The notes beneath the pieces are model-generated. The model did no database searches. It was not told the DNA's origin and saw nothing but the letters and a program-made list of their open reading frames with translations. A program made the translations under genes and the position numbers. A stretch of 22,159 nucleotides of DNA from a virus. Lineage: Duplodnaviria > Heunggongvirae > Uroviricota > Caudoviricetes. Location: the IMG/VR virus record IMGVR_UViG_2671180847_000010, positions 1-22,159 of that record; one strand, written 5' to 3'. Below, one piece after another: positions 1 to 13,029 of this stretch; position 1 is the first letter of the stretch, and each line of letters starts with the position of its first letter.

Positions 1-933
1 ATGGACAACGACAAAATTGATCAACACAGCGACGAAATTGAAGTTGAGAGCGAAGAAAAAGAGCGCGGCAAAAAAATAGAAATAGATGAAGACCGACTCC
101 CCTCCCGGGCGATGGCAATTCATGAGCATATCCGCCAGGATGGTGAAAAAGAGCTGGAACGCGACGCAATGGCGCTACTGTGGTCAGCCATTGCGGCGGG
201 TCTGTCGATGGGCGCTTCGTTACTGGCAAAAGGGATATTTCAAGTCGAACTGGAAGGTGTGCCGGGCAGCTTCTTGCTGGAGAATCTCGGTTATACCTTT
301 GGTTTTATTATCGTCATTATGGCCCGCCAGCAATTATTTACCGAAAATACCGTGACTGCGGTACTACCCGTCATGCAAAAACCGACAATGAGCAACGTCG
401 GCTTACTTATACGGTTATGGGGCGTCGTGCTGCTGGGTAATATTCTCGGGACAGGTATTGCGGCGTGGGCATTTGAATATATGCCTATCTTCAATGAAGA
501 AACTCGCGATGCATTTGTCAAAATCGGCATGGATGTGATGAAGAACACCCCCAGCGAGATGTTTGCCAACGCGATCATTTCCGGCTGGCTGATCGCCACT
601 ATGGTTTGGATGTTTCCTGCAGCGGGTGCGGCAAAGATTGTGGTGATTATATTGATGACCTGGCTTATTGCCCTGGGTGACACCACCCATATCGTGGTCG
701 GTTCTGTTGAAATCCTCTATCTGGTGTTTAACGGTACGCTGCACTGGAGCGATTTCATCTGGCCCTTCGCACTACCTACTTTAGCGGGGAACATCTGCGG
801 CGGCACCTTTATCTTCGCGTTAATGAGTCATGCACAGATTCGTAACGACATGAGCAATAAGCGTAAAGCAGAAGCACGCCAAAAAGCAGAACGTGCGGAA
901 AACATTAAGAAAAATTATAAAAACCCGGCATAA
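1..933 (+). CDS. yfdC: Formate/nitrite transporter (FNT) family inner-membrane protein, host gene
   Basis: 310-aa ORF starting at base 1; hydrophobic multi-helix protein recognised as enterobacterial YfdC; lies immediately upstream of argW as in E. coli K-12 (recalled, not searched). Confidence 0.88.
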   Translation: MDNDKIDQHSDEIEVESEEKERGKKIEIDEDRLPSRAMAIHEHIRQDGEKELERDAMALLWSAIAAGLSMGASLLAKGIFQVELEGVPGSFLLENLGYTFGFIIVIMARQQLFTENTVTAVLPVMQKPTMSNVGLLIRLWGVVLLGNILGTGIAAWAFEYMPIFNEETRDAFVKIGMDVMKNTPSEMFANAIISGWLIATMVWMFPAAGAAKIVVIILMTWLIALGDTTHIVVGSVEILYLVFNGTLHWSDFIWPFALPTLAGNICGGTFIFALMSHAQIRNDMSNKRKAEARQKAERAENIKKNYKNPA

Positions 934-1008
934 ATGGCGAGGGTTTAAGCAATCGAGCGGCAGCGTACTTACCCCGCACTCCATTAGCGGGTATACTCAT
1001 GCCGCATT

Positions 1009-1083
1009 GTCCTCTTAGTTAAATGGATATAACGAGCCCCTCCTAAGGGCTAATTGCAGGTTCGATTCCTGCAGGGGACACCA
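1009..1083 (+). tRNA. argW: tRNA-Arg (anticodon CCU), prophage integration target
   Basis: 75-nt sequence gtcctcttagttaaatggatataacgagcccctcctaagggctaattgcaggttcgattcctgcaggggacacca read directly; cloverleaf-compatible, ends in CCA, anticodon loop CUCCUAA. Matches my recollection of E. coli argW. Confidence 0.93.
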
Positions 1084-1244
1084 TTTATCAGTTCGCTCCC
1101 ATCCGTACCAGTCCGCAAAATCCCCTGAATATCAAGCCTCCCGTAGATTCACAGTTCGTCATGGTTCGCGTCAGATCGTTGACAGCCGCACTCCATGACG
1201 GGTAAAAAGTGGATAAAATAATTTTACCCACCGGATTTTTACCC

Positions 1245-2402
1245 ATGCTCACCGTTAAGCAGATTGAAGCAGCAAAGCCGAAAGAAAAACCATACCGCCT
1301 TCTCGATGGTAATGGCCTGTACCTTTATGTCCCTGTGTCAGGGAAAAAGGTATGGCAGCTTCGCTACAAGATTGACGGTAAGGAGAAAATCCTGACCGTC
1401 GGAAAATATCCGCTTATGACTTTGCAGGAAGCAAGGGATAAGGCATGGACTGCGAGGAAAGACATCTCGGTTGGCATCGATCCGGTAAAGGCGAAAAAGG
1501 CTTCGTCTAACAACAATTCATTTAGTGCGATTTACAAGGAATGGTACGAGCACAAGAAGCAAGTCTGGTCAGTAGGCTATGCAACTGAACTTGCCAAAAT
1601 GTTTGATGACGACATTTTACCCATCATCGGCGGTCTTGAGATTCAGGATATTGAGCCGATGCAACTGCTGGAAGTAATCCGCAGATTTGAAGATCGCGGT
1701 GCAATGGAGCGAGCCAACAAAGCCCGCAGAAGATGCGGCGAGGTTTTCCGTTACGCTATTGTCACTGGTAGGGCTAAATATAACCCGGCACCTGACCTTG
1801 CTGACGCCATGAAGGGATACCGCAAGAAGAACTTCCCGTTTTTACCTGCCGACCAGATCCCGGCATTCAACAAAGCACTTGCAACATTTTCAGGAAGTAT
1901 CGTATCGCTCATTGCGACAAAAGTTTTACGTTATACAGCCCTAAGAACGAAAGAGCTTCGTTCCATGCTATGGAAGAACGTCGATTTTGAAAACAGGATT
2001 ATCACCATCGACGCCAGTGTGATGAAGGGACGCAAAATTCATGTGGTCCCGATGTCAGACCAGGTGGTTGAACTTCTCACTACGCTAAGCTCAATCACCA
2101 AACCAGTCTCAGAGTTTGTTTTTGCCGGGCGCAACGATAAGAAAAAGCCAATCTGCGAGAACGCGGTATTGCTTGTGATCAAACAAATCGGCTATGAGGG
2201 TCTGGAAAGCGGTCACGGATTCAGGCATGAATTCAGCACGATTATGAACGAGCACGAATGGCCTGCTGACGCTATTGAAGTGCAACTGGCACATGCCAAC
2301 GGCGGATCTGTGCGCGGGATTTACAACCATGCTCAGTATCTCGATAAGCGCAGAGAAATGATGCAGTGGTGGGCGGACTGGCTTGATGAAAAGGTGGCGT
2401 AA
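1245..2402 (+). CDS. intS: P4-family tyrosine integrase (IntS-like), transcribed away from argW
   Basis: Tyrosine-recombinase C-terminal region (..HGFRHEFST.., ..RGIYNH..) and an N-terminal region of the kind P4-family integrases carry; sits immediately 3' of a tRNA gene. Start placed at in-frame ATG 1245 (385 aa) rather than the track's GTG 1209; neither has a strong SD. Confidence 0.9.
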   Translation: MLTVKQIEAAKPKEKPYRLLDGNGLYLYVPVSGKKVWQLRYKIDGKEKILTVGKYPLMTLQEARDKAWTARKDISVGIDPVKAKKASSNNNSFSAIYKEWYEHKKQVWSVGYATELAKMFDDDILPIIGGLEIQDIEPMQLLEVIRRFEDRGAMERANKARRRCGEVFRYAIVTGRAKYNPAPDLADAMKGYRKKNFPFLPADQIPAFNKALATFSGSIVSLIATKVLRYTALRTKELRSMLWKNVDFENRIITIDASVMKGRKIHVVPMSDQVVELLTTLSSITKPVSEFVFAGRNDKKKPICENAVLLVIKQIGYEGLESGHGFRHEFSTIMNEHEWPADAIEVQLAHANGGSVRGIYNHAQYLDKRREMMQWWADWLDEKVA

Positions 2403-2630: not shown

Positions 2631-4538
2631 CTAAGCATTAAACCCTCCGACTCTTACTTTTAACGTGGTAAGCTTAGTATTTACTGTTATTTTTAAAGTT
2701 CCCGAGCCTGCAGCAACAGAGAATAAGCGGCGACCTCCAGATGTACCACCTCCAGCAGGAGGGGTGGTATCGAGTTCGCCTGTGATCGATATTGAAATGG
2801 TACCCTCACGGTTAGCAACGAGTAGCTCTAAACATTCAGCCCAGGTGTTTTGTGCAGAAGACCAAGCATCGATAAGGATTCTCTGTGTCGTTCTGTTTGG
2901 TATTGCGATGGATTTTACTTCACCTTCATTTACCAGACCTTGAAAACGAGTTCCATAATCTATCCAGCTAATGTTATAACCTGCATTTGTTGCAGGGTCT
3001 TGAGAGGTATACCAGGTCTGGGTTCGCACTCCAGTTTGACCGATTGTCAGTAGAGGACGAGCAAACTGATCGCGGTGAATGTATGCGTTAGCCCTTATTC
3101 CATTGCTTTGCAGATCTATATCTGCTGTTCGAGGGTTAGGAAAAGTAGCTTTTCCACCAACATCAAAAACATCATAATGATTTGCAACTGCAGGAATCCA
3201 TCCGTTCCTGTCCAGATTTCTAAAGAAATCCTCGAAAGCCAGCCAGTATGATTGCTGATGACCTAAAAGGTTAGGGTGAACAGTCTGTATTTCAGGGGTC
3301 CGGTCAAATAATGCCGTTTCACCATATTTAGCAACAGCATCAAACCAGTATTTTTCCACATCGATAAGCACGCAACCCATTTCTACAGCGATTTTCCTGA
3401 TCGCATCGTTTCCTCGAAGGAAGCGGACACCTGCTTGAATATTTACCCCATTCCACTCAAACGTGACATTTGAGTTTGCGGCAGATGGTATAATGTCATT
3501 ATCAGAGACTGGGGCCGGAGAAGATGAAGGCCATATTTGAGAAATTCCAGCCGGCATGCTCCAGCTATATTCAGAAATATTCGGATGAGGTGTGGTTGTT
3601 AGCACAACATCCCCGCCGGCCTCCCTGACTAAATTAATAGCATTTCGAAGGCGCTGTTTAAATCCGTTTTCATTGAATGTTTGCCCGGCATTATATTGTG
3701 CGGTAGGAAAATCATTCATTCCATATATAAACAAAGCAATATCAGGATATATTCCTTCAGTAACAACTTCAGGCCATTGGTTAACAATAAAATTATTTAT
3801 CGTTGAACCATTAACAGATTTGTTTGTGAAGTTAATGGGATAAATACGCTGCTTATTTAACGTATCGTTCATATACTCAAAAAATTTAGCAACTGGTGCC
3901 TGTGTTGCTGGATCAGGAAGCGTAGCACCAACCCCAACAGAAGAACCAAACCCATAGAGTCGAAATAAGTTCTGATAGCCAGAAACCCCATGCCGATAAG
4001 CTGTTAATTTATTGACGAAATTTGGGAAAAGGGCCTGTGATGATCCAGACGCAGCACGAATAGAAGCCTCTACCGTTCTTCCTGTTTCAGTCGCAACTAG
4101 GCTAGCACCTTCTTTTGAAGATAATCGGCAGTTAAAATCTGATATCTCATCAATTTCTGATTGTATTGCTGCCAGTAGCTCATCTACGTAGTGACGTAAC
4201 TGGTCAGGCTCGTATTTTAGAACATTAGGAAAATAGAACTGCTGAGCACCATATGCATCATAAACAGCCATAGAATGGCCTTGCACAGTAACGAACTTGG
4301 CAATCTGCCCGTTATATACCGGATATCCAGCAGCGTTAATGATGATTGGTTGCGAAACAGGAACATGAGAGCCGTCTTCGTTCTCTACATAAACCTGAAT
4401 CTGGTTTTCTGGACTTACCGGGTCAGTGTCAATTTTACCGATATAAATTTTTCCATTGGCTACGGCTTTAAAAGAACGAGCCATAGTGAAGAGTTGCGAA
4501 GGCATGCTTACCACAACATTGGCTGTAATGTCTGTCAT
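2631..4538 (-). CDS. Tailspike protein: P22-like head-binding N-terminal domain fused to a non-P22 receptor-binding region with SGNH-hydrolase-like motifs
   Basis: N-terminal ~115 aa ([11 protein letters not shown]...[18 protein letters not shown]...[11 protein letters not shown]) matches the conserved P22 gp9 head-binding domain as I recall it. Downstream region carries ordered motifs GFGSS (aa 196-200), NGST (243-246), GMND (273-276, nt 3711-3722) and VHP (420-422), resembling SGNH blocks I, II, III and V. Confidence 0.9.
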
Positions 4539-4670
4539 TTAATTTGCTCCAGATACAAGGAATCACCGAAGCATGGCTACGGTTGGTGTTTGTTGCATAC
4601 CGAAATGGTACGATTGTTGATTTGTACAGTAGGTTTTACGATGCCATTCCACCCATTTGGTGAGGCATTG
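4539..4670. promoter_or_regulatory. Divergent intergenic region between tailspike (-) and mnt-like (+) starts; presumed promoters/operators
   Basis: 132-bp non-coding spacer between two divergently oriented start codons; GGAG-type SD upstream of each start. Specific -10/-35 elements could not be assigned confidently by eye. Confidence 0.4.
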
Positions 4671-4928
4671 ATGATGTACAGCAAATACGATGAGGCGCAG
4701 TTCCACTTGAGGCTTACGCACGAGTTGCACGCTAAGATTAAGCAACGTGCAAAAATGAATAACAGGTCTATCAATTCCGAAATTGTGGCTACGATGGAAG
4801 AATCACTCTCCAAACCATCACCTGTAAGCGGGTATCGTGATGAAGAAGAGAGGCTGGCCTCATTAATCTCGGAACGAGTAAAAGAAGTTGTGGCTGATAT
4901 CCTTAGAAAAGAAAAAACCCGCAATTAA
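4671..4928 (+). CDS. mnt: Mnt-like ribbon-helix-helix repressor (immI-type)
   Basis: 85-aa product with an RHH N-terminus (FHLRLTHELHAKIKQRA..NNRSINSEIVATMEESL) and the segment SKPSPVSGYR, closely resembling P22 Mnt as recalled. SD GAGG 5 nt upstream of ATG 4671. The track's 217-aa ORF (4275..4928) is an upstream extension that overlaps the tailspike in antisense. Confidence 0.8.
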   Translation: MMYSKYDEAQFHLRLTHELHAKIKQRAKMNNRSINSEIVATMEESLSKPSPVSGYRDEEERLASLISERVKEVVADILRKEKTRN

Positions 4929-4936
4929 GCGGGTTT
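4915..4936 (-). terminator. Rho-independent terminator closing the minus-strand antirepressor operon; mnt stop codon lies in the loop
   Basis: Stem AAACCCGC / GCGGGTTT with 6-nt loop aattaa. On the minus strand the hairpin is followed by TTTTTTC TTTTC; on the plus strand the U-tract is poor. The mnt TAA (4926-4928) is in the loop. Confidence 0.75.
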
Positions 4937-4942
4937 AGTTGG

Positions 4943-5164
4943 TTAGTTATCAAAAAGTCCGTACGTTTCTTCTTCTTCAGGTGTAAGGGGAAGAATCTCT
5001 ACTCTATCTATAGATACCTTTTCAATGTACCCATGAGGTCTACTTAAAATTAAAGCTCTCTCATGCCACAGAACTCCAAGAATGTGATACCTTCCAGCAT
5101 CTCCTTTTACCCTGGCTCTTCCTTTGATTCTTGGCGGCATAATGCCATATCTTTTCTTTGCCAT
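4943..5164 (-). CDS. Hypothetical 73-aa protein, translationally coupled to the upstream antirepressor gene
   Basis: Start ATG overlaps the stop of the upstream gene (TAATG arrangement at 5162-5166); ORF ends just before the operon terminator. No recognisable domain. Confidence 0.5.
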   Translation of the reverse strand: MAKKRYGIMPPRIKGRARVKGDAGRYHILGVLWHERALILSRPHGYIEKVSIDRVEILPLTPEEEETYGLFDN

Positions 5165-5889
5165 TATGCAACATTGCTCCCATGAATCAGGTGTTGTAGT
5201 GCTTTAACACCCTCCGCATTGTAGCGGAATGCTTCCACCTGTTTGCTTGAATGCGCAGATTTATCCAAGAAGAACTTCCCGTACTGCTCAGTTTTGAGGT
5301 TGTTTGCGTTAGCAATGCGACCAATCTTGTTTGCCGTTACTCCAAGCTGCTCTGCAACCTCCCCTGCTGAGTAGTAATGCTCTTCTATTGCTGGAAGAGG
5401 TATTGCATTAAAACCAACTATCGGGTTGATTATGCTTGCTGCCGCAGTCTGCTTTGCTTCCGGCGCAAGATTTGGCATCAAATCTAACAGATTGGTAACA
5501 GCTTCAACCGTCATTTTCAATGTTCGAGCCTGGCGATACTCAACAAGTCCACTCGACGATTTACCGCTTTTAATGTGCGCTTCTTGCATACTTTCAAGTT
5601 TGTCTACAAGTGTTCGGCGAACTGCTTTAGATTCGCGAGCAGCAACACGAAGCGCCTGCTTGATAGTCATGGAGATAACATCAATGTCAGCCCCGTTTTT
5701 CCGACCTACACTTTTTGTGTAGGTCTCGCCCTCCAATTCATCCTCAATTTTCTCGATGAATTTGTTGTTACGTACTGATGGCTCTCCACATAACTTGCGA
5801 GCTTCATTAACCATCATCAGAAGACTTTGGCTGTCAATGGTTTTATCCGTGACAACGGATCCGATGTTTGCTACATTCTTCAAAGTCAT
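5164..5889 (-). CDS. Putative phage antirepressor (Ant/KilAC-like C-terminal region)
   Basis: 241 aa from ATG 5889 with SD AAGGAA upstream (track ORF begins further upstream at 5940). C-terminal segment YSAGEVAEQLGVTANKIGRIANANNLK... resembles KilAC/ANT antirepressor domains; domain call is from memory and needs a profile search. Confidence 0.7.
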   Translation of the reverse strand: MTLKNVANIGSVVTDKTIDSQSLLMMVNEARKLCGEPSVRNNKFIEKIEDELEGETYTKSVGRKNGADIDVISMTIKQALRVAARESKAVRRTLVDKLESMQEAHIKSGKSSSGLVEYRQARTLKMTVEAVTNLLDLMPNLAPEAKQTAAASIINPIVGFNAIPLPAIEEHYYSAGEVAEQLGVTANKIGRIANANNLKTEQYGKFFLDKSAHSSKQVEAFRYNAEGVKALQHLIHGSNVA

Positions 5890-5977
5890 TAGGCATTCCT
5901 TATGTGGTAGTAAGGGTGTGACATAGGCCGCCAGCAGCACACTGGCGGTTTTCTTTTTGCGCCGTCCGGCGCACCAA

Positions 5978-6604
5978 TCAATGAATCCATTCCTCGCCGC
6001 GCAGTTTTGTCAGCATTGGCTGAGCGTTCTTTACGACAAAATTGTTGGTATCAAGATTCTTCATTTCACGAAGAAGTGATTTCTTGGTTTCTTCTGACAT
6101 ATAGCGAGTCTCATATGCAATATCGTAAATTCTTCCTGAAAGCTCAGAACCAATTTGCTTCATTCCTGGGTAGATGTGTTTGCACATTTGTTGACTCTTC
6201 TCCATCCACAATTGTAAGTAGCAGAGATTAACCAGTTCTTCGTCAGTAAACTGTTTTGCAATCGGTGAGCATTCTGCCTGCCGATCCAAAATATCCAGCA
6301 CCCAGCGGCGGAACTCTTTGGCTACCGGAGTGCGAGCAAACATCGCGATTAGGTGGGCACCGCGTAGTGAGAAAACTCGCACTTTTTTGCGATAATTTCC
6401 TGAGGTACTCACTTCGAGTACCTGAGTCATTCCGGCGCTAAACTCATCGCTATACTTGTTATAAATCATTGTTACTGCACGGCTATTTGCATATTTAAGT
6501 GCAGATGCAATATTAGATGATGTAAACCAAACACCATGCATATCACGGGTGGGCACCAACTCAACTCCGTGGAAGTTGTAATCTGATTTTGCTACAATAT
6601 TCAT
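5978..6604 (-). CDS. Bro-N domain protein (antirepressor-like)
   Basis: Bro-N signature (..GVWFTSSNIASALKY..KKVRVFSLRGAHLIAMFARTPVAKEFRRWVLDIL..). Start placed at ATG 6604 preceded by SD AAGGAA; the track ORF starts at an upstream TTG (6709). Confidence 0.8.
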   Translation of the reverse strand: MNIVAKSDYNFHGVELVPTRDMHGVWFTSSNIASALKYANSRAVTMIYNKYSDEFSAGMTQVLEVSTSGNYRKKVRVFSLRGAHLIAMFARTPVAKEFRRWVLDILDRQAECSPIAKQFTDEELVNLCYLQLWMEKSQQMCKHIYPGMKQIGSELSGRIYDIAYETRYMSEETKKSLLREMKNLDTNNFVVKNAQPMLTKLRGEEWIH

Positions 6605-6677
6605 GTTAGTTTCCTTGCATACGGTTACTGACATAGAGGCCCGGTTTGTGTTCGCGCACTGCCGGGCTTCACTATTT

Positions 6678-6851
6678 TTATTGGATGACAACATCGCCCT
6701 TTGCCTCAAGTTTCATCAATAACTCCATTCGATAAGCTATCTCTGCCTGAATTGACCTATGGCATCTTTTTGCTGATTCGCGGATATGTGAATCAACCTT
6801 TTCTGTAAAACGAACCTGACGCGGCTTGATGGAAGATATCTTTTCAGTCAT
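6678..6851 (-). CDS. Arc-like ribbon-helix-helix protein (57 aa), first gene of the antirepressor operon; absent from the ORF track
   Basis: Hand translation of the minus strand: MTEKISSIKPRQVRFTEKVDSHIRESAKRCHRSIQAEIAYRMELLMKLEAKGDVVIQ. SD AGGAG 6 nt upstream of the ATG. RHH pattern (beta strand QVRFTEKV, then two helices) and RSIQAEIAYRME resemble P22 Arc RSVNSEIYQRVME as recalled. Below the track's apparent 60-aa cutoff. Confidence 0.6.
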   Translation of the reverse strand: MTEKISSIKPRQVRFTEKVDSHIRESAKRCHRSIQAEIAYRMELLMKLEAKGDVVIQ

Positions 6852-6950
6852 TATGCACTCCTGTTTTTGAAAAACTCATAATCTCACTTTTTGTAGTTTG
6901 ATTATTCACTCACACTCAGTATGAGTCAATGAATTTTTTATGGTGAACTA
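6852..6950. promoter_or_regulatory. Divergent control region between the antirepressor operon (-) and the CI-like repressor gene (+), with palindromic operator candidates
   Basis: 99-bp spacer between divergent start codons. Contains a 13-bp palindrome GTTTTTGAAAAAC (6863-6875) and an inverted repeat ACTCA-gta-TGAGT (6914-6926). Confidence 0.5.
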
Positions 6951-7592
6951 ATGAATTTTGACGATCAATTCCCATCAAGAGTATCTCTGGCAAGACAGTC
7001 CAGGGGTATGACGCAGGCGCAGTTGTCAAAATTAGCTGGTGTTGTTCAACGTCAAATAGCTGCATACGAGGGTGGTGAGGCTAAACCACGGCTTCGTGTA
7101 TTGCAGGCATTAGCCAACGCATTAGGCACTACGGCTGAGTGGTTAGCTCTGGGTGAAGGTCAGGGGCCTGGAACAAAAAACGTCATGCCTGACGTTCTGG
7201 TAAAGCAAATACCAATCCTCAAACTAGATGAAGTTATGCATTACCTAAACACAGGTGAACATTCATCGTCTAGATTTCATCCGGCAATATACAATGTTGG
7301 TGACTCTGCATTTGCATTGACTATTGAAGGTGAAGCTATGACTACAAGTTCAGGTATTAGCTTTCCCAGAGGATCAGTTGTCACGTTCAGCCCTCTAGTA
7401 AAAGCTAAAAGCAAAGATTATGTAATAGCATCATTGGATAAAGAGCAAATATTGAGCTTCAAGCAGGTTTACATTGGTGAAATAGAGACAAACTTAGTAT
7501 CCCTAAACCCAATGTATCCTAATATTCTTGTTAGAAATGAAGATGTTAGTATTTTGGCAACCGCAGTTTACCTTGAAATCCCGTTGCTTTGA
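6951..7592 (+). CDS. CI/LexA-like repressor: XRE-type HTH plus peptidase S24-like domain with Ala at the nucleophile position (predicted non-cleavable)
   Basis: N-terminal HTH (MTQAQLSKLAGVVQRQIAAYE). C-terminal region aligns by eye to lambda CI: DSAFALTIEGEAM vs CI DSAFWLEVEGNSM, SFKQV vs TFKKL, LNPMYP vs LNPQYP. Nucleophile position is Ala129 (codon gct at 7335-7337); Lys171 is retained; no Ala-Gly in the linker. Confidence 0.9.
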   Translation: MNFDDQFPSRVSLARQSRGMTQAQLSKLAGVVQRQIAAYEGGEAKPRLRVLQALANALGTTAEWLALGEGQGPGTKNVMPDVLVKQIPILKLDEVMHYLNTGEHSSSRFHPAIYNVGDSAFALTIEGEAMTTSSGISFPRGSVVTFSPLVKAKSKDYVIASLDKEQILSFKQVYIGEIETNLVSLNPMYPNILVRNEDVSILATAVYLEIPLL

Positions 7593-7652: not shown

Positions 7653-8042
7653 GTGAAGCTATTTCTTGCTGCTATGTTCTTATTCATATCTTTTGGGGCT
7701 ACAGCAGAGTGCTGGGTCGTTGGAGATATGCGCGGAATAAGCTATTCAGAACGAAATAATTTCCATCCGGAAGAAGATGGTTTTAGTGGAACATTCATCA
7801 TTAAGACAAGCGGTGAAGATGCTAGCATCACATATTCTGGGACAGATGCGGGCGGCATGGCTTACAAAGTATTGTCTAAAAACTCCATCATAGGAATCGG
7901 CGCGAATGGCGAAACTCAACGCGTTATCGACTCATGGGTAATACATCCTACTGGAACAGTTTTAATGTCAAAAACCATTTCCGGTTATGGAAATATGGAT
8001 TCAACCAAAGCTTTTGTTGGAAAAGTAAAAAGAAAATGTTAA
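7653..8042 (+). CDS. Hypothetical exported protein (signal peptide), probably co-transcribed with the CI-like repressor
   Basis: GTG start 5 nt after a strong SD AAGGAGG. N-terminus MKLFLAAMFLFISFGATA-E looks like a Sec signal peptide with an A-x-A cleavage site; two Cys in the mature part. No terminator between it and the repressor gene. No recognisable domain. Confidence 0.7.
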   Translation: MKLFLAAMFLFISFGATAECWVVGDMRGISYSERNNFHPEEDGFSGTFIIKTSGEDASITYSGTDAGGMAYKVLSKNSIIGIGANGETQRVIDSWVIHPTGTVLMSKTISGYGNMDSTKAFVGKVKRKC

Positions 8043-8063
8043 TGATAGGATTATGGCCCTACA

Positions 8064-8249
8064 TCAACAGGTTCCGCGCCCCTGAGTAATTCTGTTGCGG
8101 ATTTGCTTCTTGCGGTGGTTTAAGCTGGATAGCTTGGCTTCTGCTTCTGATATTTGCGCATCTAGATCTTTAAGCTCAAGATCTGAAAGTCGCTGGTCAA
8201 GCAGGGTTTGATTCAACTCAATGTTGTTCAGGCGTTCTTCTATGGTCAT
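8064..8249 (-). CDS. Hypothetical 61-aa coiled-coil protein
   Basis: ATG preceded by a strong SD (TAAGGAG, 6-nt spacer); heptad-like Leu/Ile spacing. It lies directly after a terminator U-tract with no room for its own promoter, so expression is uncertain. Confidence 0.35.
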   Translation of the reverse strand: MTIEERLNNIELNQTLLDQRLSDLELKDLDAQISEAEAKLSSLNHRKKQIRNRITQGRGTC

Positions 8250-8265
8250 GATTTCTCCTTATAAA

Positions 8266-8287
8266 AAACCCACCTGACGGTGGGTTT
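8266..8287 (-). terminator. Rho-independent terminator after the lipoprotein gene (possibly bidirectional)
   Basis: Stem AAACCCACC / GGTGGGTTT, 4-nt loop. On the minus strand it is followed by a U run (TTTTTTAT), 9 nt after the lipoprotein TAA. On the plus strand it is followed by TTTCATTTCTT. Confidence 0.7.
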
Positions 8288-8293
8288 CATTTC

Positions 8294-8713
8294 TTAATCT
8301 TGCTTTGTAGACGGTATAAGGGATGCGTTTGCCTCTTTTGGCTTCAAGGTATACATCCCACCATTAAATGGATCAACAGCAAGCCAACCAATTAACCCAC
8401 CAAACACAAGGTTTCCACCAATATACCAACCATTAGCATTGGCTTTGATTGGCAGGGTAACTGGTTCGTACCCATCCTTCTCCATAGTGATCTGGTAGCT
8501 CTTTTTGCCAAAATAACTACCATCTGACTTGGCAAGAGTTACTCCTTGCGGGGTCTTACCTTGCGCAACAATCACGCCTGATTCGTCTTTTACCTTAAAG
8601 CTCGCACCGGAAGGATTGCTGTTCACTTGCACAAGCTGTGTTTCGTCACCAACAATAGTTGCGCACCCAGATAACATGATAGCGCCAGCAACGACGCTAA
8701 TAATCCTCTTCAT
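8294..8713 (-). CDS. Prophage lipoprotein with PEGA-like motif, insulated accessory gene
   Basis: MKRIISVVAGAIMLSG-C has a lipobox (LSGC) after a hydrophobic signal. Segment NPSGASFKVKDESGVIVAQGKTPQGVTL...KDGYEPVT resembles the PEGA motif. Start at ATG 8713 (track ORF starts 4 codons upstream at 8725). Own terminator downstream; 83-bp non-coding spacer upstream. Confidence 0.78.
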   Translation of the reverse strand: MKRIISVVAGAIMLSGCATIVGDETQLVQVNSNPSGASFKVKDESGVIVAQGKTPQGVTLAKSDGSYFGKKSYQITMEKDGYEPVTLPIKANANGWYIGGNLVFGGLIGWLAVDPFNGGMYTLKPKEANASLIPSTKQD

Positions 8714-8808
8714 ATCAATTTCCATATCTAAAAAACCGGAAACATCCTAATGACAAACCATTCAAATGTGAAGCACGAGATAAGATCAATCCATCCGTGG
8801 ACGACTAA

Positions 8809-10977
8809 TTACTCCTGTGTCATTCCGCTTAGCGATACTACAATCCCAGCCCTCGACAAACGCTGGAACTCTTCGTTTCCTAGTGCATCGCGAATTGCTT
8901 TTACGGCGGCCTTATTTGCCATAAATCTGCGTTCCGCCGCCGCTAATGCGCCATCACTTGCCCCAACCTTAACTGCCTTTGTTGCCTCTTGAACAGCCTT
9001 TTCAATAGCGTAACGACCACTTCTGGTTGCGGATAATTTCGCTATCGATCCTTTTGCTATCGCATCAATTGCTCCACCTGCAGCGCCACCAACTATTGCT
9101 CCAATAACACCTCCTCCAGAGAACCCTGCGATAGCGCCAGCGGTTGGAAAAGCGCCAGACAATACGCTCTCTAAAACTGGATGAAGGCCATTCTCAAGAG
9201 TGCTAATGGCTGGCATAGAGCGCCCTGTCTGTTCAACATATCGAAGTGGCTTTGTTGCAGCTCTTGCAAGTTCTCCGTATGAACTTGTAATCCTGCCAAG
9301 TTCTGGAGAATATCGACTAATTGCCTTCACGTTTTGTGGGGTAAGAATAGTCGCGATATGCTTAATTCCAGCCCCTTCAGACTTACCTCCGCGTACCCCT
9401 TGCGATACCGCATCTTGTAATATTGATGCAATTGCTGGCGCGCGTTCCGACTCAGGTAGGGCGCTTATTATTTTATGAAACTGACCTGTTCCACTTTTTG
9501 CTGAGCCCTGTAACGCCTTAGAGCCATTAGTTACTAACTGATCAGTTGCAAGGTCTCTACCAAACGCTGCTTCAGCCTGTTCTTGTGCTGTAAATCTTGC
9601 CTTTGACAGATCATTAGCTTTTTGCCAGTCATCAAGAAAACCGCCATTTTGAGCCATTATGCGCATATCTTCCGTTGCTGCATCACGAAGCTCAGCCATG
9701 CGCCTTGCCGTATTTGCCTCACCAGACCTTATATACTTCTGCTCTGCGTCAGCAAGTTTACTTCGCCATGCCTTCATGGCATCAAACGTGATTCCTTTTT
9801 TACCAGTTTTAGCATAAGCAGATGCGAATTGTTTCATCTCAGGAGTTAGCGGCATGCCAGCCAAAATATCACCCTGAATTGTAGCGTTCAGGTTTGACAT
9901 TCTGGCCTTTGCGTCAGGCATCGTGGAGCGGACGCTATCCCATGCGGCCTTTTCTGAATTTTTCATTTTATCAATGCTTGCCAAAACCCTCTGTTTTATG
10001 GCTGCACTTTTTTCTGATGCAGTTCCTGCTTCAGCCCCAAACTCATCCAATGCTGAGTTAAATTTCGACTCTATTTCACTGAATGCTTTGGTGTGTGCAT
10101 CCTGTGTAATTCCGGGCTTTGACGCCAGAATCCCCTCCGCCTGAGCAAGACCACGACTACCTGATCTCATGCCAGGAGTTAATGCGTTGATATCTATTCC
10201 AGCAGTATCTGCTGCTTTTGCTATTTCGTCTGACACGTTAGCTGACTGTCTGGCAATAATCTCTCTTCCTGTACCAGACTTTGCCATTTTCGAAACATCA
10301 TTAGCAGAATTCAGTGCTGCACCACCAAGAGCCTGTGAAACCCTTGGCGCAATAACGCGCCCGACACCTGAAAGAACGCCTTGAGCACCAATATTGATAC
10401 CACCGTTAATGGCAGCATTTTGTGCAAAGTCGCCCTCCTGATTTGCAGCATCAGCAAGAGAACCTGCAATCATGTTTCCTGCGGAACCGATATCTCCAGC
10501 GAGCTTTGCTGTCGCTCCAGCAGCTTTTGCCGCTGTGCCAATTGGCAGGAGATACCCACCAAATGTTTCACCGGCTTGCGCCCAACGGTCTGTCGGTCGA
10601 TCGACAGGGCGATAAACATCATCCAAAACCTTGGGGCCACCAAGCCCATGGCTGATTGCATTAATCAGACTTGCGCCACCCTGCAATACGTCAAATGGTA
10701 TGTTTACCAGACCACGACCAGCCTGTTCTGCAATTTGCCCTGCACTTTGACCACCTGTGAGCCAATCGCCAGCTTGTTGCATCAATGATGGTTCTTCTTT
10801 CTGCTGCTGATGCGGAGGGTATGCAGCATAAAACTGATCTCTTGCTTCAGCCCATTTGTCACCAGCCTTAGGGGCAACAACCTCATCAAAATATTGCGCT
10901 TGAGCCTGTGCTTTCTGTTCTTCAGTTAACGCCTGATACTGTGGAGAAGCGATAACATCTTTCCATGCTTTAGCCAT
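8809..10977 (-). CDS. DNA ejection (internal virion) protein, P22 gp16-position
   Basis: Last gene of the late operon, in the position of P22 gene 16. Start overlaps the gp20 stop (ATGA). Gly/Ala-rich hydrophobic segment near the C-terminus. Confidence 0.85.
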
Positions 10978-12326
10978 TAATCACCCCATAAAGACGAGAA
11001 ACCGGACTTATTGCTGTCGCTTCCTGATTTTCGCTCACTAACATATGTGTCATAACCTGATGAACTATATCCCATTGATTCAGCCTCCCTTGCTGCAACC
11101 TTTTGAAATACAGAATATTGCGATCGGATTTCAGATAACTGTTTTCTGACGACCTCTTCAGGCTGTGTTATATCGAGTTTCGCGATCAGGTTTTCCAGTT
11201 TTTGGCCTTCAGCATTGGAGAGGCTACCCATACCTCGCATAGTCTGCACGTTCTGGACAAACGCACCCGACTTTAATTCTTCTATCGCATTACGGTTTGC
11301 AAGCCCTTCAGCACTTGTGAAGCCATCTATATTTCTTCCTTCGAAGCGACCGATACCTTCAAGCTCCTTCTTACCAAGCAAAGAATCAATTTTCTCTATC
11401 CCTCGCTCACCAGTAATCAACGCATTGTTGTAATTATTGTTGCCATCAAGCCATCTCTTAGCCTGAGACATTCTGGCTGACGTTGCAGCTTTACCGGTTA
11501 GAGGATCAATTCCCGTCGCTGCTATCTGTGAGTTAAGAGACAAAACATCCATATCCTGAAGTTGTCCTGCTCTTTCAAGGGCCGCCTGTGACTGCTTAAA
11601 CACATACTTGTCGTGATTCAGTCTTGCCATTTGAGCCTTATAGGAAAGATCCTGCCCCCTAATAGCCCTCGCATTCGTCATGTCATTATTGCGAATGGTT
11701 TCGTTAATTCTTTGCTGCTCCTGCTGGCGACCAACCATCTTATCCTGAACAGCAAAAGCCTTTTCTGGCCCAAGTGCACCGAGAGACATAGTAGTCAGCA
11801 TGTGTGATAGCTGCTCTGGATTCTGGATACCTGTCTGAATCATCCAGTCAGCATTCGCACCCACGCGATTTAACCTGTCCTTGTTGTCAGTAATGAATTT
11901 ACTGTAGGCTTCCGGTCCCTGAGAAAGAGCGACGTTAGCTCTCATGGCTAAATCGCCCATATCGTTGCGTTGCTGCTCATTAAGACCGGAAAACGCCTGT
12001 TGTGCCTGTGCAACAAACGCTGGATTTTCCTGGGCAAACTTAAATAGTCCCGATGGATCACCAGAAGCCCATGCATCAGCGTGAACCTTATTGAACGCAC
12101 TAATCGCTTTCTGTTGCTGTTCCTGCTTATAAATATCAGCAACTCCAGCCAGACCACGTAATGCGGTCAGACCAACGTTATTTGCACCTGATCGAGCCAG
12201 TTCATTGTTTTCGCGGATCAGACCAAGCGTTGCGTTAATGTCGCTTGCCTTTGGCGCATTCTCATTTTGCGCACCGATGCCAGCCAGAAAACCACCAGAA
12301 TTAATACCCTGTTGCCACGTAGCCAT
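10977..12326 (-). CDS. DNA ejection protein, P22 gp20-like
   Basis: 449 aa, in the position of P22 gene 20 between gp7 and gp16 homologues; Gln/Ala-rich predicted helical protein. Confidence 0.85.
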
Positions 12327-12336
12327 TGATTACCCC

Positions 12337-13029
12337 TTAAAACAACGAGCCAAGCAGACCAAGACCAGCACCGATACCAGCACCCCACGGAGTTGATAGC
12401 TCGAGAGCACTGGCTATGCCACCACCCAAAAGCGCACCGGATGCAGCACCACTAACACCCTGCTGCAATGCTGACGGTCTGTTGGCATTTGCCGCTGCAA
12501 GAGCCGCACTTTGCTGCGAAATCTGACTCATGTTGTTGGCATATGTCTGCCCGGCGTTTGCCTGCCCCTGAAGAGCGCCAAGACCGATATTTGCCAGGTT
12601 GTTGTAATTGTTCATTTGTCCAGATAGCCATTGCTGACCAAGCGTTGGTGCGATTGTTGCTAACTGATTACTGGTTGCGGTGGAACCCAATCCACCTGTT
12701 GCTTCCGCTGCCGCCAGACTCTGATAGCGAGCCTGACCAGCAAGATCTTTGTACTGCTGAGAGTTGTAATACTGGTTAAGCGCCTGACCTTGCCCCTCCA
12801 GAGACGATAAGTTCTCGAGGCTGCCGACATACTTCTCAGCCAGAGGAGTAAACGGCTTCAGGTTATTCATGATGGTGTTGAACTGCTGATTTTGCAGGTC
12901 TGCGGCATACTTCTGAGCTTCTGCTGCATACTTAGCGCTTTTATCAGAACTGCCACCTTTCCCACCTTTTTCAGGGCAATAAGGTTCCTCGCCGCGCAGT
13001 TTTCTGCCCAGCTTAAATGCATATAACAT
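12337..13029 (-). CDS. DNA ejection protein, P22 gp7-like
   Basis: 230 aa; N-terminus MLYAF.LGRKLRGEE and Gly-rich hydrophobic C-terminus (..STPWGAGIGAGLGLLGSLF) as in P22 gp7 (recalled); correct operon position. Confidence 0.85.
   Translation of the reverse strand: MLYAFKLGRKLRGEEPYCPEKGGKGGSSDKSAKYAAEAQKYAADLQNQQFNTIMNNLKPFTPLAEKYVGSLENLSSLEGQGQALNQYYNSQQYKDLAGQARYQSLAAAEATGGLGSTATSNQLATIAPTLGQQWLSGQMNNYNNLANIGLGALQGQANAGQTYANNMSQISQQSAALAAANANRPSALQQGVSGAASGALLGGGIASALELSTPWGAGIGAGLGLLGSLF

What the first reader, a model, noticed from the sequence alone, without database searches (positions are those of the whole stretch)
8266..8808. Insulated lipoprotein gene with PEGA-like motif in the position where P22 carries sieA
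Between the last ejection-protein gene and the regulatory island there is a single lipoprotein gene (lipobox LSGC) with its own upstream spacer and a strong intrinsic terminator. This is the promoter-gene-terminator layout typical of lysogen-expressed accessory genes. It occupies the slot where P22 has the superinfection-exclusion gene sieA, but encodes an unrelated envelope lipoprotein. Phage lipoproteins such as T5 Llp and phi80 Cor exclude superinfecting phage by masking outer-membrane receptors, so a similar role is plausible.
Basis: partly seen in the sequence, partly recalled or inferred. Interest (0 to 1): 0.55.

Follow-up and report, generated by a model that had tools for sequence, protein, structure and literature searches.

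The report
Prophage moron encoding an envelope lipoprotein
A small, self-contained gene cassette in a P22-like E. coli prophage encodes an outer-membrane lipoprotein of unknown function (the phage ε34 gp15 family); it is a reasonable but untested candidate for blocking infection by other phages.

Summary
Window 8294-8713 (minus strand) encodes a 139-aa lipoprotein with lipobox LSGC, Cys17 and Ala at +2. It has a PEGA-like β-sandwich and a strong intrinsic terminator, and lies directly 3' of ejection gene 16.

It is not a new gene. It is 99% identical to Salmonella phage ε34 gp15 (phrog_6823, "hypothetical") and occurs in about 2% of complete E. coli genomes.

What this analysis adds:
- The unit is a discrete cassette, about 8262-8773. 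At least three different left contexts join at a σ70-like -35 box, and at least three right contexts join after the terminator.
- Homologues 68-77% identical sit in other tail-gene slots of siphovirus prophages, including the tail chaperone/tape-measure slot where HK97 carries its exclusion gene 15.
- The gene is under strong purifying selection (dN/dS 0.04; 74 of 74 copies intact).
- Homologues up to 78% identical are ordinary chromosomal genes, part of a large unnamed proteobacterial family.

Two corrections. Nothing insulates the gene from late read-through upstream. P22 sieA occupies the same slot but on the opposite strand.

Function is unproven. Entry exclusion leads (about 0.35), nearly tied with a host-envelope fitness role. 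Interest is moderate to low.

The parts
8767..8772 (-). Predicted σ70 -35 hexamer, TTCACA. It marks the left (5') boundary of the mobile cassette.
   Evidence: Consensus scan. Homology to ε34 and to other left contexts begins exactly at CTTCAC. Promoter activity has not been tested.
8744..8749 (-). Predicted -10 hexamer, TAGGAT, with a 17-nt spacer to the -35.
   Evidence: In the 720R6-type allele the hexamers (TTCACG and TAAGAT) and the 17-nt spacing are kept although the spacer sequence differs. TAGGAT plus the following GTTTCYG is also kept in homologues 77-80% identical in other phages.
8714..8743 (-). Discriminator and 5' leader with a GGAA Shine-Dalgarno (8720-8723). GUUUCC (8738-8743) is complementary to the Shine-Dalgarno region.
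   Evidence: Read from the sequence. The accessibility test was inconclusive for this allele.
8294..8713 (-). Lipoprotein coding sequence, 139 aa (ε34 gp15 family, phrog_6823, WP_000821345).
   Evidence: dN/dS is 0.038 and 74 of 74 copies are intact.
8663..8713 (-). Signal peptide (residues 1-16) and lipobox LSGC, with the lipidated Cys17.
   Evidence: PS51257 rule met, Ala at +2. Cys is invariant in the alignment.
8435..8653 (-). PEGA-like β-sandwich domain (residues 21-93).
8351..8434 (-). Family-signature Gly-rich hydrophobic segment NGWYIGGNLVFGGLIGWLAVDPFNGGMY (residues 94-121).
   Evidence: Nearly invariant across the family. Kyte-Doolittle 19-residue mean 1.3. Low-confidence two-helix prediction, flanked by a confident strand that returns to the sandwich.
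8259..8288 (-). Intrinsic terminator (hairpin 8265-8288 plus U-run). It marks the right (3') boundary of the cassette.
   Evidence: -16.2 kcal/mol, z = -4.45. Conserved with loop variants, and three different downstream contexts begin after the T-run.

Best explanation
Window ~8262-8773 is a moron: a self-contained cassette made of a σ70-type promoter, a lipoprotein gene and an intrinsic terminator. It sits in the variable "ant moron" region of a P22-like prophage integrated at argW.

The product would be cleaved and lipidated at Cys17 and, with Ala at +2, sorted by Lol to the inner leaflet of the outer membrane. There a PEGA-like β-sandwich, which starts only about 7 residues after the lipid anchor, is held against the membrane. 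A conserved Gly-rich hydrophobic hairpin (residues 94-121) probably dips into the membrane or mediates oligomerisation or partner binding.

The cassette's own promoter would let it be expressed from the repressed prophage. Its co-orientation with gene 16, with no upstream terminator, means it is also transcribed late.

Most likely role: it alters the lysogen's envelope so that incoming phages are blocked at or just beneath the outer membrane (superinfection or entry exclusion). It would do so by binding a conserved host envelope component rather than a fast-evolving phage protein.

Shown:
- the gene, the lipobox, the fold class and the terminator;
- the cassette boundaries and the multi-slot distribution;
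- purifying selection.

Inferred:
- promoter activity, lipidation and outer-membrane location;
- the re-entrant topology of the hydrophobic segment;
- the exclusion function.

Confidence by layer: about 0.85 for "moron encoding an envelope lipoprotein"; about 0.35 for the exclusion role.
For: Cassette nature:
- Left contexts of ε34 type, window type and 720R6 type all join at the -35 box. Right contexts (mnt, the 61-aa ORF, another gene) all join after the terminator.
- Ninety-two Stx-type phages share the tail chaperone T / tape measure H flanks without the roughly 0.5-kb insert.

Recurrent capture by temperate phages, always co-oriented with the tail or ejection genes:
- after gene 16 in P22-like phages;
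- between T and the tape measure in E. coli prophages, the slot where HK97 carries exclusion gene 15 (PMC3594210);
- just upstream of the tape measure in Proteus;
- between tail genes I and J in Pseudescherichia.

Slot precedent:
- P22 carries sieA in the slot after gene 16. SieA blocks DNA delivery through gp16 and gp20 (PMC10883804).
- No P22-type sieA co-occurs with the cassette in 81 loci.

Selection and phage type:
- dN/dS 0.038, 74 of 74 copies intact. Against distant homologues, dS is saturated while dN is 0.14-0.33.
- Among isolated phages, close copies (≥97% identity) occur only in temperate Lederbergvirus, which fits a lysogen function.

Lipoprotein signal.

Precedent from established knowledge: the lipoproteins Cor, Llp and Ltp act as exclusion factors.
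Against: - No experimental data exist for any family member. There was no literature hit, and ε34 gp15 was listed as unknown in 2008.
- The protein is not related to Cor, Llp, Bor, SieA or HK97 gp15, and it has no PADLOC hit.
- Homologues 68-78% identical are stand-alone chromosomal genes in Enterobacter and Fukatsuia, and a 52% identical one is in Zoogloea. The family has 5501 cluster representatives. This suggests a general envelope function that phages merely borrowed.
- The same cassette sits behind two different gp16 types, so there is no sign of co-evolution with ejection proteins.
- The promoter is a weak consensus match (9 of 12), and such matches are not enriched over shuffles.
- GC content is only slightly lower than in the flanks: 0.43 against 0.48.
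- The slots involved are general moron hot spots, so position alone is weak evidence.
Confidence: 0.35

Rival explanations
1. Lysogenic-conversion fitness factor. The lipoprotein does in E. coli what its chromosomal homologues do elsewhere: a general outer-membrane or periplasmic job. Examples are envelope stabilisation, resistance to stress, serum or bile, or organising outer-membrane proteins, in the manner of Bor/Iss, TraT or SlyB. The prophage benefits by raising host fitness, not by blocking phages.
For: - Close full-length homologues lie in non-prophage chromosomal contexts: Enterobacter at 78%, Fukatsuia at 68% next to rpoE-rseABC and dsbB, and Zoogloea at 52% next to dsbA.
- The family is very large and conserved, with an invariant signature.
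- Very low dN/dS and no diversification.
- In the E. coli siphovirus prophages it co-resides with a porin moron.
- The layout of lipid anchor, β-sandwich and Gly-rich hydrophobic hairpin loosely recalls SlyB (own knowledge; not detected by any search).
Against: - No sequence or profile link to Bor, TraT, Gly-zipper or SlyB families.
- The chromosomal contexts share no operon that hints at a pathway.
- Repeated capture specifically next to DNA-delivery genes, in slots known to hold exclusion genes, is equally or better explained by exclusion.
Confidence: 0.33
2. Lytic-cycle accessory. The gene is made mainly from late read-through transcripts and acts during or after lysis. For example, it could mask receptors on lysing cells and debris so that progeny are not wasted (as T5 Llp does), or it could aid envelope disruption.
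For: - The gene is co-oriented with the late operon in every phage context, and no terminator lies between gene 16 and the gene.
- Late transcription is known to pass through this region to reach the tailspike gene (PMC2629481).
Against: - It has its own conserved promoter-like element and terminator.
- It is absent from many otherwise syntenic, viable phages.
- It is found only in temperate phages and prophages and in chromosomes.
- P22-like receptors are O-antigen polysaccharides, which a periplasm-facing lipoprotein could not mask.
Confidence: 0.1
3. Passenger gene with no current function for the phage: a hitch-hiking bacterial gene in a recombination hot spot.
For: The region between gene 16 and the tailspike gene is in rapid flux, with ten gene arrangements in sixteen genomes (PMC2629481). 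No function is known.
Against: All 74 prophage copies are intact, there are 49 nucleotide alleles, and dN/dS is 0.038. The promoter hexamers and the terminator are conserved. The gene has been acquired independently in at least four slots.
Confidence: 0.03

Closest known systems
Salmonella phage ε34 gene 15 product (ACF16641.1; phrog_6823; E. coli WP_000821345.1)
   Same: The same protein: 99.3% identical, the same slot after the gene-16 homologue, and the same terminator.
   Different: In ε34 an hkcB homologue lies between gene 13 (the gene-16 homologue) and gene 15, and mnt follows the terminator. Here hkcB is absent and a 61-aa ORF follows. Function is unknown in both.
P22 SieA (phrog_7745)
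   Same: Occupies the slot immediately 3' of ejection gene 16. It has its own promoter and is expressed from the prophage as an envelope protein (PMC10883804).
   Different: SieA is a polytopic inner-membrane protein encoded on the opposite strand. There is no sequence relationship. SieA's targets, gp16 and gp20, are known; nothing is known for the lipoprotein.
HK97 gp15 moron (YebO-like exclusion protein)
   Same: Homologues of the lipoprotein occupy the same tail-chaperone / tape-measure slot in E. coli siphovirus prophages whose tape measure is HK97-like. Both are morons with bacterial chromosomal relatives.
   Different: gp15 is a small inner-membrane protein, unrelated in sequence. gp15 diverged from YebO at its C-terminus, whereas the phage lipoprotein stays conserved over its full length with chromosomal homologues.
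Cor (φ80/N15/HK022) and T5 Llp exclusion lipoproteins
   Same: Small phage-encoded outer-membrane lipoproteins. Cor is a prophage-expressed gene in the tail region.
   Different: Only the signal peptide matches Cor: NCBIfam 13.3 bits against a cut-off of 31, and the PHROG match covers residues 1-20. No T5-like or φ80-like phage appears among the tblastn matches. Cor and Llp inactivate FhuA; no target is known here.
λ Bor / Iss and plasmid TraT
   Same: Lipoproteins carried on mobile elements and expressed in the carrier cell, with a host-fitness role (own knowledge).
   Different: No Pfam Lambda_Bor or TraT match. The fold is different.
PEGA domain (PF08308) proteins, e.g. archaeal S-layer stalk SlaB
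   Different: The score is below Pfam's gathering threshold. The family-defining C-terminal Gly-rich motif is not part of PEGA.

Membership tests
Bacterial lipoprotein (Lgt/LspA/Lnt substrate) | Signal peptide with a positive n-region, a hydrophobic core and a lipobox [LVI][ASTVI][GAS]C, with Cys at position 15-35 | tested here: met
   VVAGAIMLSGC, Cys17, K2/R3. Cys is invariant in 22 homologues. 124 of 150 distant representatives pass the strict rule, and most of the unmatched sequences printed (12 of the 15 shown) still carry a Cys followed by A-[ST]-[IL].
Bacterial lipoprotein (Lgt/LspA/Lnt substrate) | Actual diacylglyceryl modification and signal peptidase II cleavage; outer-membrane sorting (no Asp at +2) | not testable with these tools
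   Ala is at +2 here and in 113 of 124 family members, and Asp never occurs there. Localisation is inferred from the +2 rule only.
Pfam PEGA domain (PF08308) | Score at or above the gathering threshold (20.8 bits) | tested here: not met
   17.5-17.6 bits, E = 0.004. Only 7 of 22 homologues give any hit at E < 1.
Pfam PEGA domain (PF08308) | Prealbumin/PEGA-type β-sandwich fold | tested here: met
Moron (Juhala/Hendrix sense) | Presence/absence polymorphism between otherwise syntenic phage genomes | tested here: met
   Ninety-two Stx-type phages share the T-H flanks without the insert. P22-like phages carry other genes in the slot.
Moron (Juhala/Hendrix sense) | Own terminator | tested here: met
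   -16.2 kcal/mol, z = -4.45, conserved across contexts. Caveat: in the E. coli T-H slot a similar hairpin exists even without the insert.
Moron (Juhala/Hendrix sense) | Own promoter, active in the lysogen | tested here: inconclusive
   TTCACA-17-TAGGAT matches 9 of 12 consensus positions, and such matches are not enriched over chance. However, the hexamers and spacing are conserved while the spacer diverges, and the -35 is the cassette boundary. No expression data.
Moron (Juhala/Hendrix sense) | Base composition distinct from its neighbours | tested here: inconclusive
   Cassette GC 0.434 against 0.482 for gp16 and 0.477 for the whole window. The difference is small.
Cor exclusion lipoprotein (NF047972 / phrog_1119) | Full-length profile match above the cut-off | tested here: not met
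   13.3 bits against a cut-off of 31, residues 1-30 only. The PHROG match covers residues 1-20 only.
SieA (phrog_7745) | Sequence homology; polytopic inner-membrane protein | tested here: not met
   BLASTP E = 0.039 over 31 hydrophobic residues. No phrog_7745 hit. There is only one moderately hydrophobic segment.
T5 Llp, λ Bor, HK97 gp15 | Sequence homology | tested here: not met
   tblastn against 50,697 phage records matches only ε34, Gally, 720R6 and a Caulobacter phage. No Lambda_Bor Pfam hit.
Known anti-phage defence proteins (PADLOC-DB 2.0) | Profile match | tested here: not met
   No families matched.
Superinfection-exclusion function (any family) | Reduced plating, adsorption or DNA entry of challenge phages when the gene is expressed alone | not testable with these tools
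   Needs experiments. Only positional analogy is available.

The most novel reading that the evidence does not exclude
A large, unnamed proteobacterial outer-membrane lipoprotein family is a new class of entry-exclusion factor. Its members combine a membrane-proximal PEGA-like β-sandwich with a conserved re-entrant Gly-rich hairpin. Temperate phages of at least three architectures have captured it independently as a promoter-to-terminator cassette and placed it beside their DNA-delivery genes: gene 16 in P22-like phages and the tape measure in siphoviruses. The protein would act from the outer-membrane/periplasmic side on a conserved host component needed for the trans-envelope DNA conduit. 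In addition, the 6-nt discriminator is complementary to the Shine-Dalgarno sequence. That would give IS10-like fold-back inhibition, so that only transcripts from the cassette's own promoter (in the lysogen), and not late read-through transcripts, are translated.
Probability: 0.15. Interest if true: 0.65.

Novelty: new member of a known kind. Interest (0 to 1): 0.35.

Why it matters
If the protein proves to block phage entry, it would add an outer-membrane/periplasmic counterpart to the inner-membrane exclusion proteins SieA and HK97 gp15. It would also assign a function to a lipoprotein family with thousands of members, and explain why phages repeatedly place it next to their DNA-delivery genes.

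If instead it is an envelope fitness factor, it is one more Bor-like conversion gene.

Either way the cassette is compact (about 510 bp), has well-defined ends and is easy to test. As it stands it is a well-characterised "hypothetical" gene, not a surprise.

Tried and rejected
Searches that gave nothing useful:
- Pfam, NCBIfam, PHROG and PADLOC scans gave no functional family.
- A PDB sequence-profile search gave only weak Cna-B-like repeats.
- The afdb50 library was unavailable.
- Literature searches for the RefSeq accession, and for PEGA with prophage or lipoprotein, found nothing on this family. PMC3430355 (Cumby et al. 2012) is not held, so HK97 gp15 facts come from PMC3594210.
- Rfam found no RNA family in the cassette.

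Checks that were uninformative:
- Longer family members were scanned for informative fusions. Only one OmpA-barrel fusion turned up, and it may be a gene-calling artefact.
- Cluster look-ups gave almost no names.
- Chromosomal contexts share no operon.

Ideas rejected or left open:
- A σE-type promoter (GGAACTT-N16-TCTGA) was considered by eye. It was rejected because the -35 part is not conserved among variants.
- The fold-back hairpin that would sequester the Shine-Dalgarno was tested by base-pair probabilities against shuffled upstream sequence. It was suggestive in three variants (3-7 of 200 shuffles as low) but not in the window allele (83 of 200) or in two others.
- The MAFFT alignment of the leaders (A4) mis-registers the Shine-Dalgarno columns.
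- The ORF-lister start at 8725 was rejected in favour of 8713.

Full report
**Setting**

The window is one end of a P22-like prophage.
- It is integrated at tRNA-Arg(CCT) (1009-1083), next to a formate/nitrite-transporter-family host gene, followed by an integrase (1209-2402).
- On the minus strand run the late genes: portal and head genes, gp7 (12337-13029), gp20 (10977-12326), a 722-aa gene-16 homologue (8809-10977), and then a variable region up to the tailspike gene (2631-4538).
- The finding lies at the gene-16 end of that variable region. Casjens and co-workers called this region the "ant moron" (PMC2629481).

**The observation**

The ORF is on the minus strand (8294..8725 in the mechanical list). 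The real start is almost certainly ATG 8713:
- GGAA lies 6 nt upstream of it;
- the upstream ATG is missing from the 720R6-type allele;
- homologues start MKK/MKR at this position;
- both ε34 and PGAP annotate 139 aa.

The N-terminus MKRIISVVAGAIMLSGC satisfies the PROSITE lipoprotein rule, with Cys17 and Ala at +2. The Cys is invariant.

Downstream lies a hairpin at 8265-8288 followed by a U-run. Its energy is -16.2 kcal/mol, z = -4.45, and none of 200 shuffles folds as well.

The 8714-8808 spacer has no significant structure (z = +1.4). Nothing therefore stops late transcripts from gene 16 entering the gene, and "insulated" applies only to the 3' side.

**The protein**

- Pfam reports PEGA only below threshold: 17.5 bits against 20.8. 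Some PGAP records name it [quoted passage not shown].
- An AlphaFold2 model built on 22 homologues gives a confident β-sandwich for residues 21-93. Residues 96-120 are a low-confidence pair of short helices. A confident strand at 121-131 follows.
- Two regions are conserved most strongly. One is the residues immediately after the lipid-bearing Cys (C-A-[ST]-I-[VI]). The other is the Gly-rich hydrophobic segment NGWYIGGNxVFGGLIGWxxVDPFNGGMY. The sandwich is variable by comparison.
- The hydrophobic segment scores Kyte-Doolittle 1.3 over 19 residues. In the model the chain is predicted to resume β-strand structure immediately after it. I therefore read it as a re-entrant or interaction hairpin rather than a membrane-spanning helix. 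This is inference from the model.

**What it is known as**

- The protein is 99.3% identical to gp15 of Salmonella phage ε34. It also occurs in coliphages Gally and vB_EcoP-720R6.
- It belongs to phrog_6823, "unknown function".
[quoted passage not shown] It places genes 14 and 15 in the ant moron.
- 126 of 5426 complete E. coli genomes carry it at ≥90% nucleotide identity.
- I found no paper on its function.

**Cassette structure**

I compared 80 IMG/VR loci, ε34, 720R6 and E. coli prophages.

Left side. Three unrelated upstream sequences all become homologous exactly at CTTCAC, the predicted -35 (TTCACA, 8772-8767):
- the end of gene 16;
- the hkcB region;
- a third sequence, in 720R6-type phages.

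In the 720R6-type allele the -35 (TTCACG), the -10 (TAAGAT versus TAGGAT) and the 17-nt spacing are all retained, while the spacer itself is different.

Right side. Three different continuations begin directly after the terminator's T-run:
- mnt;
- the 61-aa ORF seen here;
- another gene.

The unit that moves is therefore about 8262-8773: promoter, gene and terminator, the textbook moron layout. The promoter is a modest consensus match, and its activity is inferred from this conservation pattern, not shown.

**Distribution**

The family is much wider than P22-like phages.
- A 68%-identical homologue, seen on 445 contigs, lies between the tail chaperone T and an HK97-type tape measure in E. coli siphovirus prophages such as that of ED1a.
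- Ninety-two Stx-type phages have the same flanks at 91-93% identity without the roughly 0.5-kb insert.
- This is the slot in which HK97 carries gene 15, the founding moron, which encodes an inner-membrane superinfection-exclusion protein (PMC3594210).
- A 71%-identical homologue lies just upstream of a λ-type tape measure in Proteus prophages.
- A 77%-identical one lies between tail genes I and J in Pseudescherichia prophages.
- In every phage context it is co-oriented with the tail or ejection genes.
- Stand-alone chromosomal copies also exist. These are Enterobacter at 78%, Fukatsuia at 68% beside rpoE-rseABC, a 64% copy in a chromosomal island, and Zoogloea at 52% beside dsbA.
- A profile search finds 5501 cluster representatives at E < 0.001. 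Among the 150 best, the median length is 170 aa, and they typically carry an extra C-terminal tail of about 45 residues that the phage forms lack.

**Selection**

- All 74 P22-like prophage copies are intact. They comprise 49 nucleotide alleles, with mean dN 0.007, mean dS 0.185 and a ratio of 0.038.
- Against the siphovirus and chromosomal homologues, dS is saturated while dN is only 0.14-0.33.
- The gene is clearly functional. It evolves conservatively, with no sign of arms-race diversification.
- The same cassette follows both P22-type and HK620-type gene 16.

**Comparison with sieA**

- P22 sieA lies immediately after gene 16 with its own promoter, but on the opposite strand.
- The two proteins are unrelated. 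None of 81 cassette-bearing loci has a P22-type sieA within 5 kb, and no window ORF that I scanned matches the SieA PHROG.

**Function**

Nothing computed here establishes it. The cases for and against exclusion are as follows.

For an exclusion role:
- the moron layout;
- restriction to temperate phages;
- occupancy of two slots where characterised exclusion genes sit (sieA and HK97 gene 15);
- the precedent of the exclusion lipoproteins Cor, Llp and Ltp.

Against, or neutral:
- non-membership of all those families;
- near-full-length conservation with ordinary chromosomal genes;
- these slots being general hot spots for inserted genes.

I rank entry exclusion, acting on a conserved host envelope component, first at about 0.35. 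A Bor/SlyB-like host-envelope fitness role is a near tie at about 0.33. A lytic-cycle role gets about 0.1, and a functionless passenger about 0.03.

**A side observation**

The 6 nt between the -10 and the expected start site (GUUUCC, 8743-8738) are complementary to the Shine-Dalgarno region. Similar pairings, some with compensatory outer pairs, are predicted in most upstream variants.

This could mean that read-through late transcripts sequester the ribosome-binding site while transcripts from the cassette's own promoter do not, as in IS10 fold-back inhibition. A pairing-probability test was suggestive for three variants but not for the window allele. I leave it as a lead.

**Verdict**

This is a known "hypothetical" gene, now better delimited, and a new member of the known class of moron-encoded envelope lipoproteins. 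Interest is 0.35.

Noticed in passing
window 1-2402: This is a prophage end. A formate/nitrite-transporter-family host gene (1-933) is followed by tRNA-Arg(CCT) at 1009-1083 and a tyrosine integrase (1209-2402). The element is therefore a P22-like prophage integrated at argW.
   Followed up: partly
window 2631-4538 (-): The tailspike has a P22-type head-binding N-terminus joined to a GDSL/SGNH esterase-like domain instead of the usual endorhamnosidase β-helix. This suggests a deacetylase-type receptor-modifying spike.
   Followed up: no
window 4641-7592: The region between gene 16 and the tailspike gene holds two antirepressor modules. The first has an Mnt-like gene (~4641-4928 +, 48% identical to P22 Mnt), a 73-aa ORF and a phrog_1726 antirepressor (5164-5940 -). 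The second has a BRO-N/P22_AR_C Ant (5978-6709 -) and a 57-aa ribbon-helix-helix protein (6678-6851 -). These are divergently paired with a 213-aa CI/LexA-like HTH + S24 peptidase repressor (6951-7592 +), in place of Mnt.
   Followed up: partly
window 7653-8042 (+): A 129-aa protein with a cleavable-looking signal peptide (MKLFLAAMFLFISFGATAEC...), in phrog_2651 of unknown function, lies downstream of the CI-like repressor. It is also found in Salmonella phages Emek and ST-35 and in many cassette-bearing loci. It may be a second envelope or periplasmic accessory protein.
   Followed up: no
window 8064-8249 (-): A 61-aa coiled-coil ORF (phrog_7586) with a strong AAGGAG Shine-Dalgarno starts 10 nt after the lipoprotein terminator's T-run. 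It accompanies the cassette in a minority of loci and is absent from ε34. It could only be transcribed by read-through of the terminator.
   Followed up: partly
window ~8046-8064: There is a mosaic junction here. No complete E. coli genome covers both sides. Sequences left of ~8046 and right of ~8057 each match different prophages at 98-99% identity.
   Followed up: partly
window 8718-8743 (-), and L020, L032, L042, L102: The discriminator GUUUCC immediately after the predicted -10 is complementary to the Shine-Dalgarno region. Outer pairs vary in a compensatory way among variants (G·U, C-G, A-U, G-C). This could be fold-back inhibition of translation on read-through transcripts. The statistical test was inconclusive for the window allele.
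   Followed up: partly
L003, L005, L006, L007 (about 10260-11424): The E. coli siphovirus prophages that carry the lipoprotein homologue between T and H also carry a porin (OmpC-like, Porin_1) gene inserted between tail genes M and L. That is a second envelope moron in the same tail operon.
   Followed up: no
L014 1639-1685 versus L005 6415-6477: The T-H intergenic region of Stx-type phages that lack the insert already contains a terminator-like hairpin. In that slot the terminator after the lipoprotein gene may therefore be resident rather than brought in by the cassette.
   Followed up: partly
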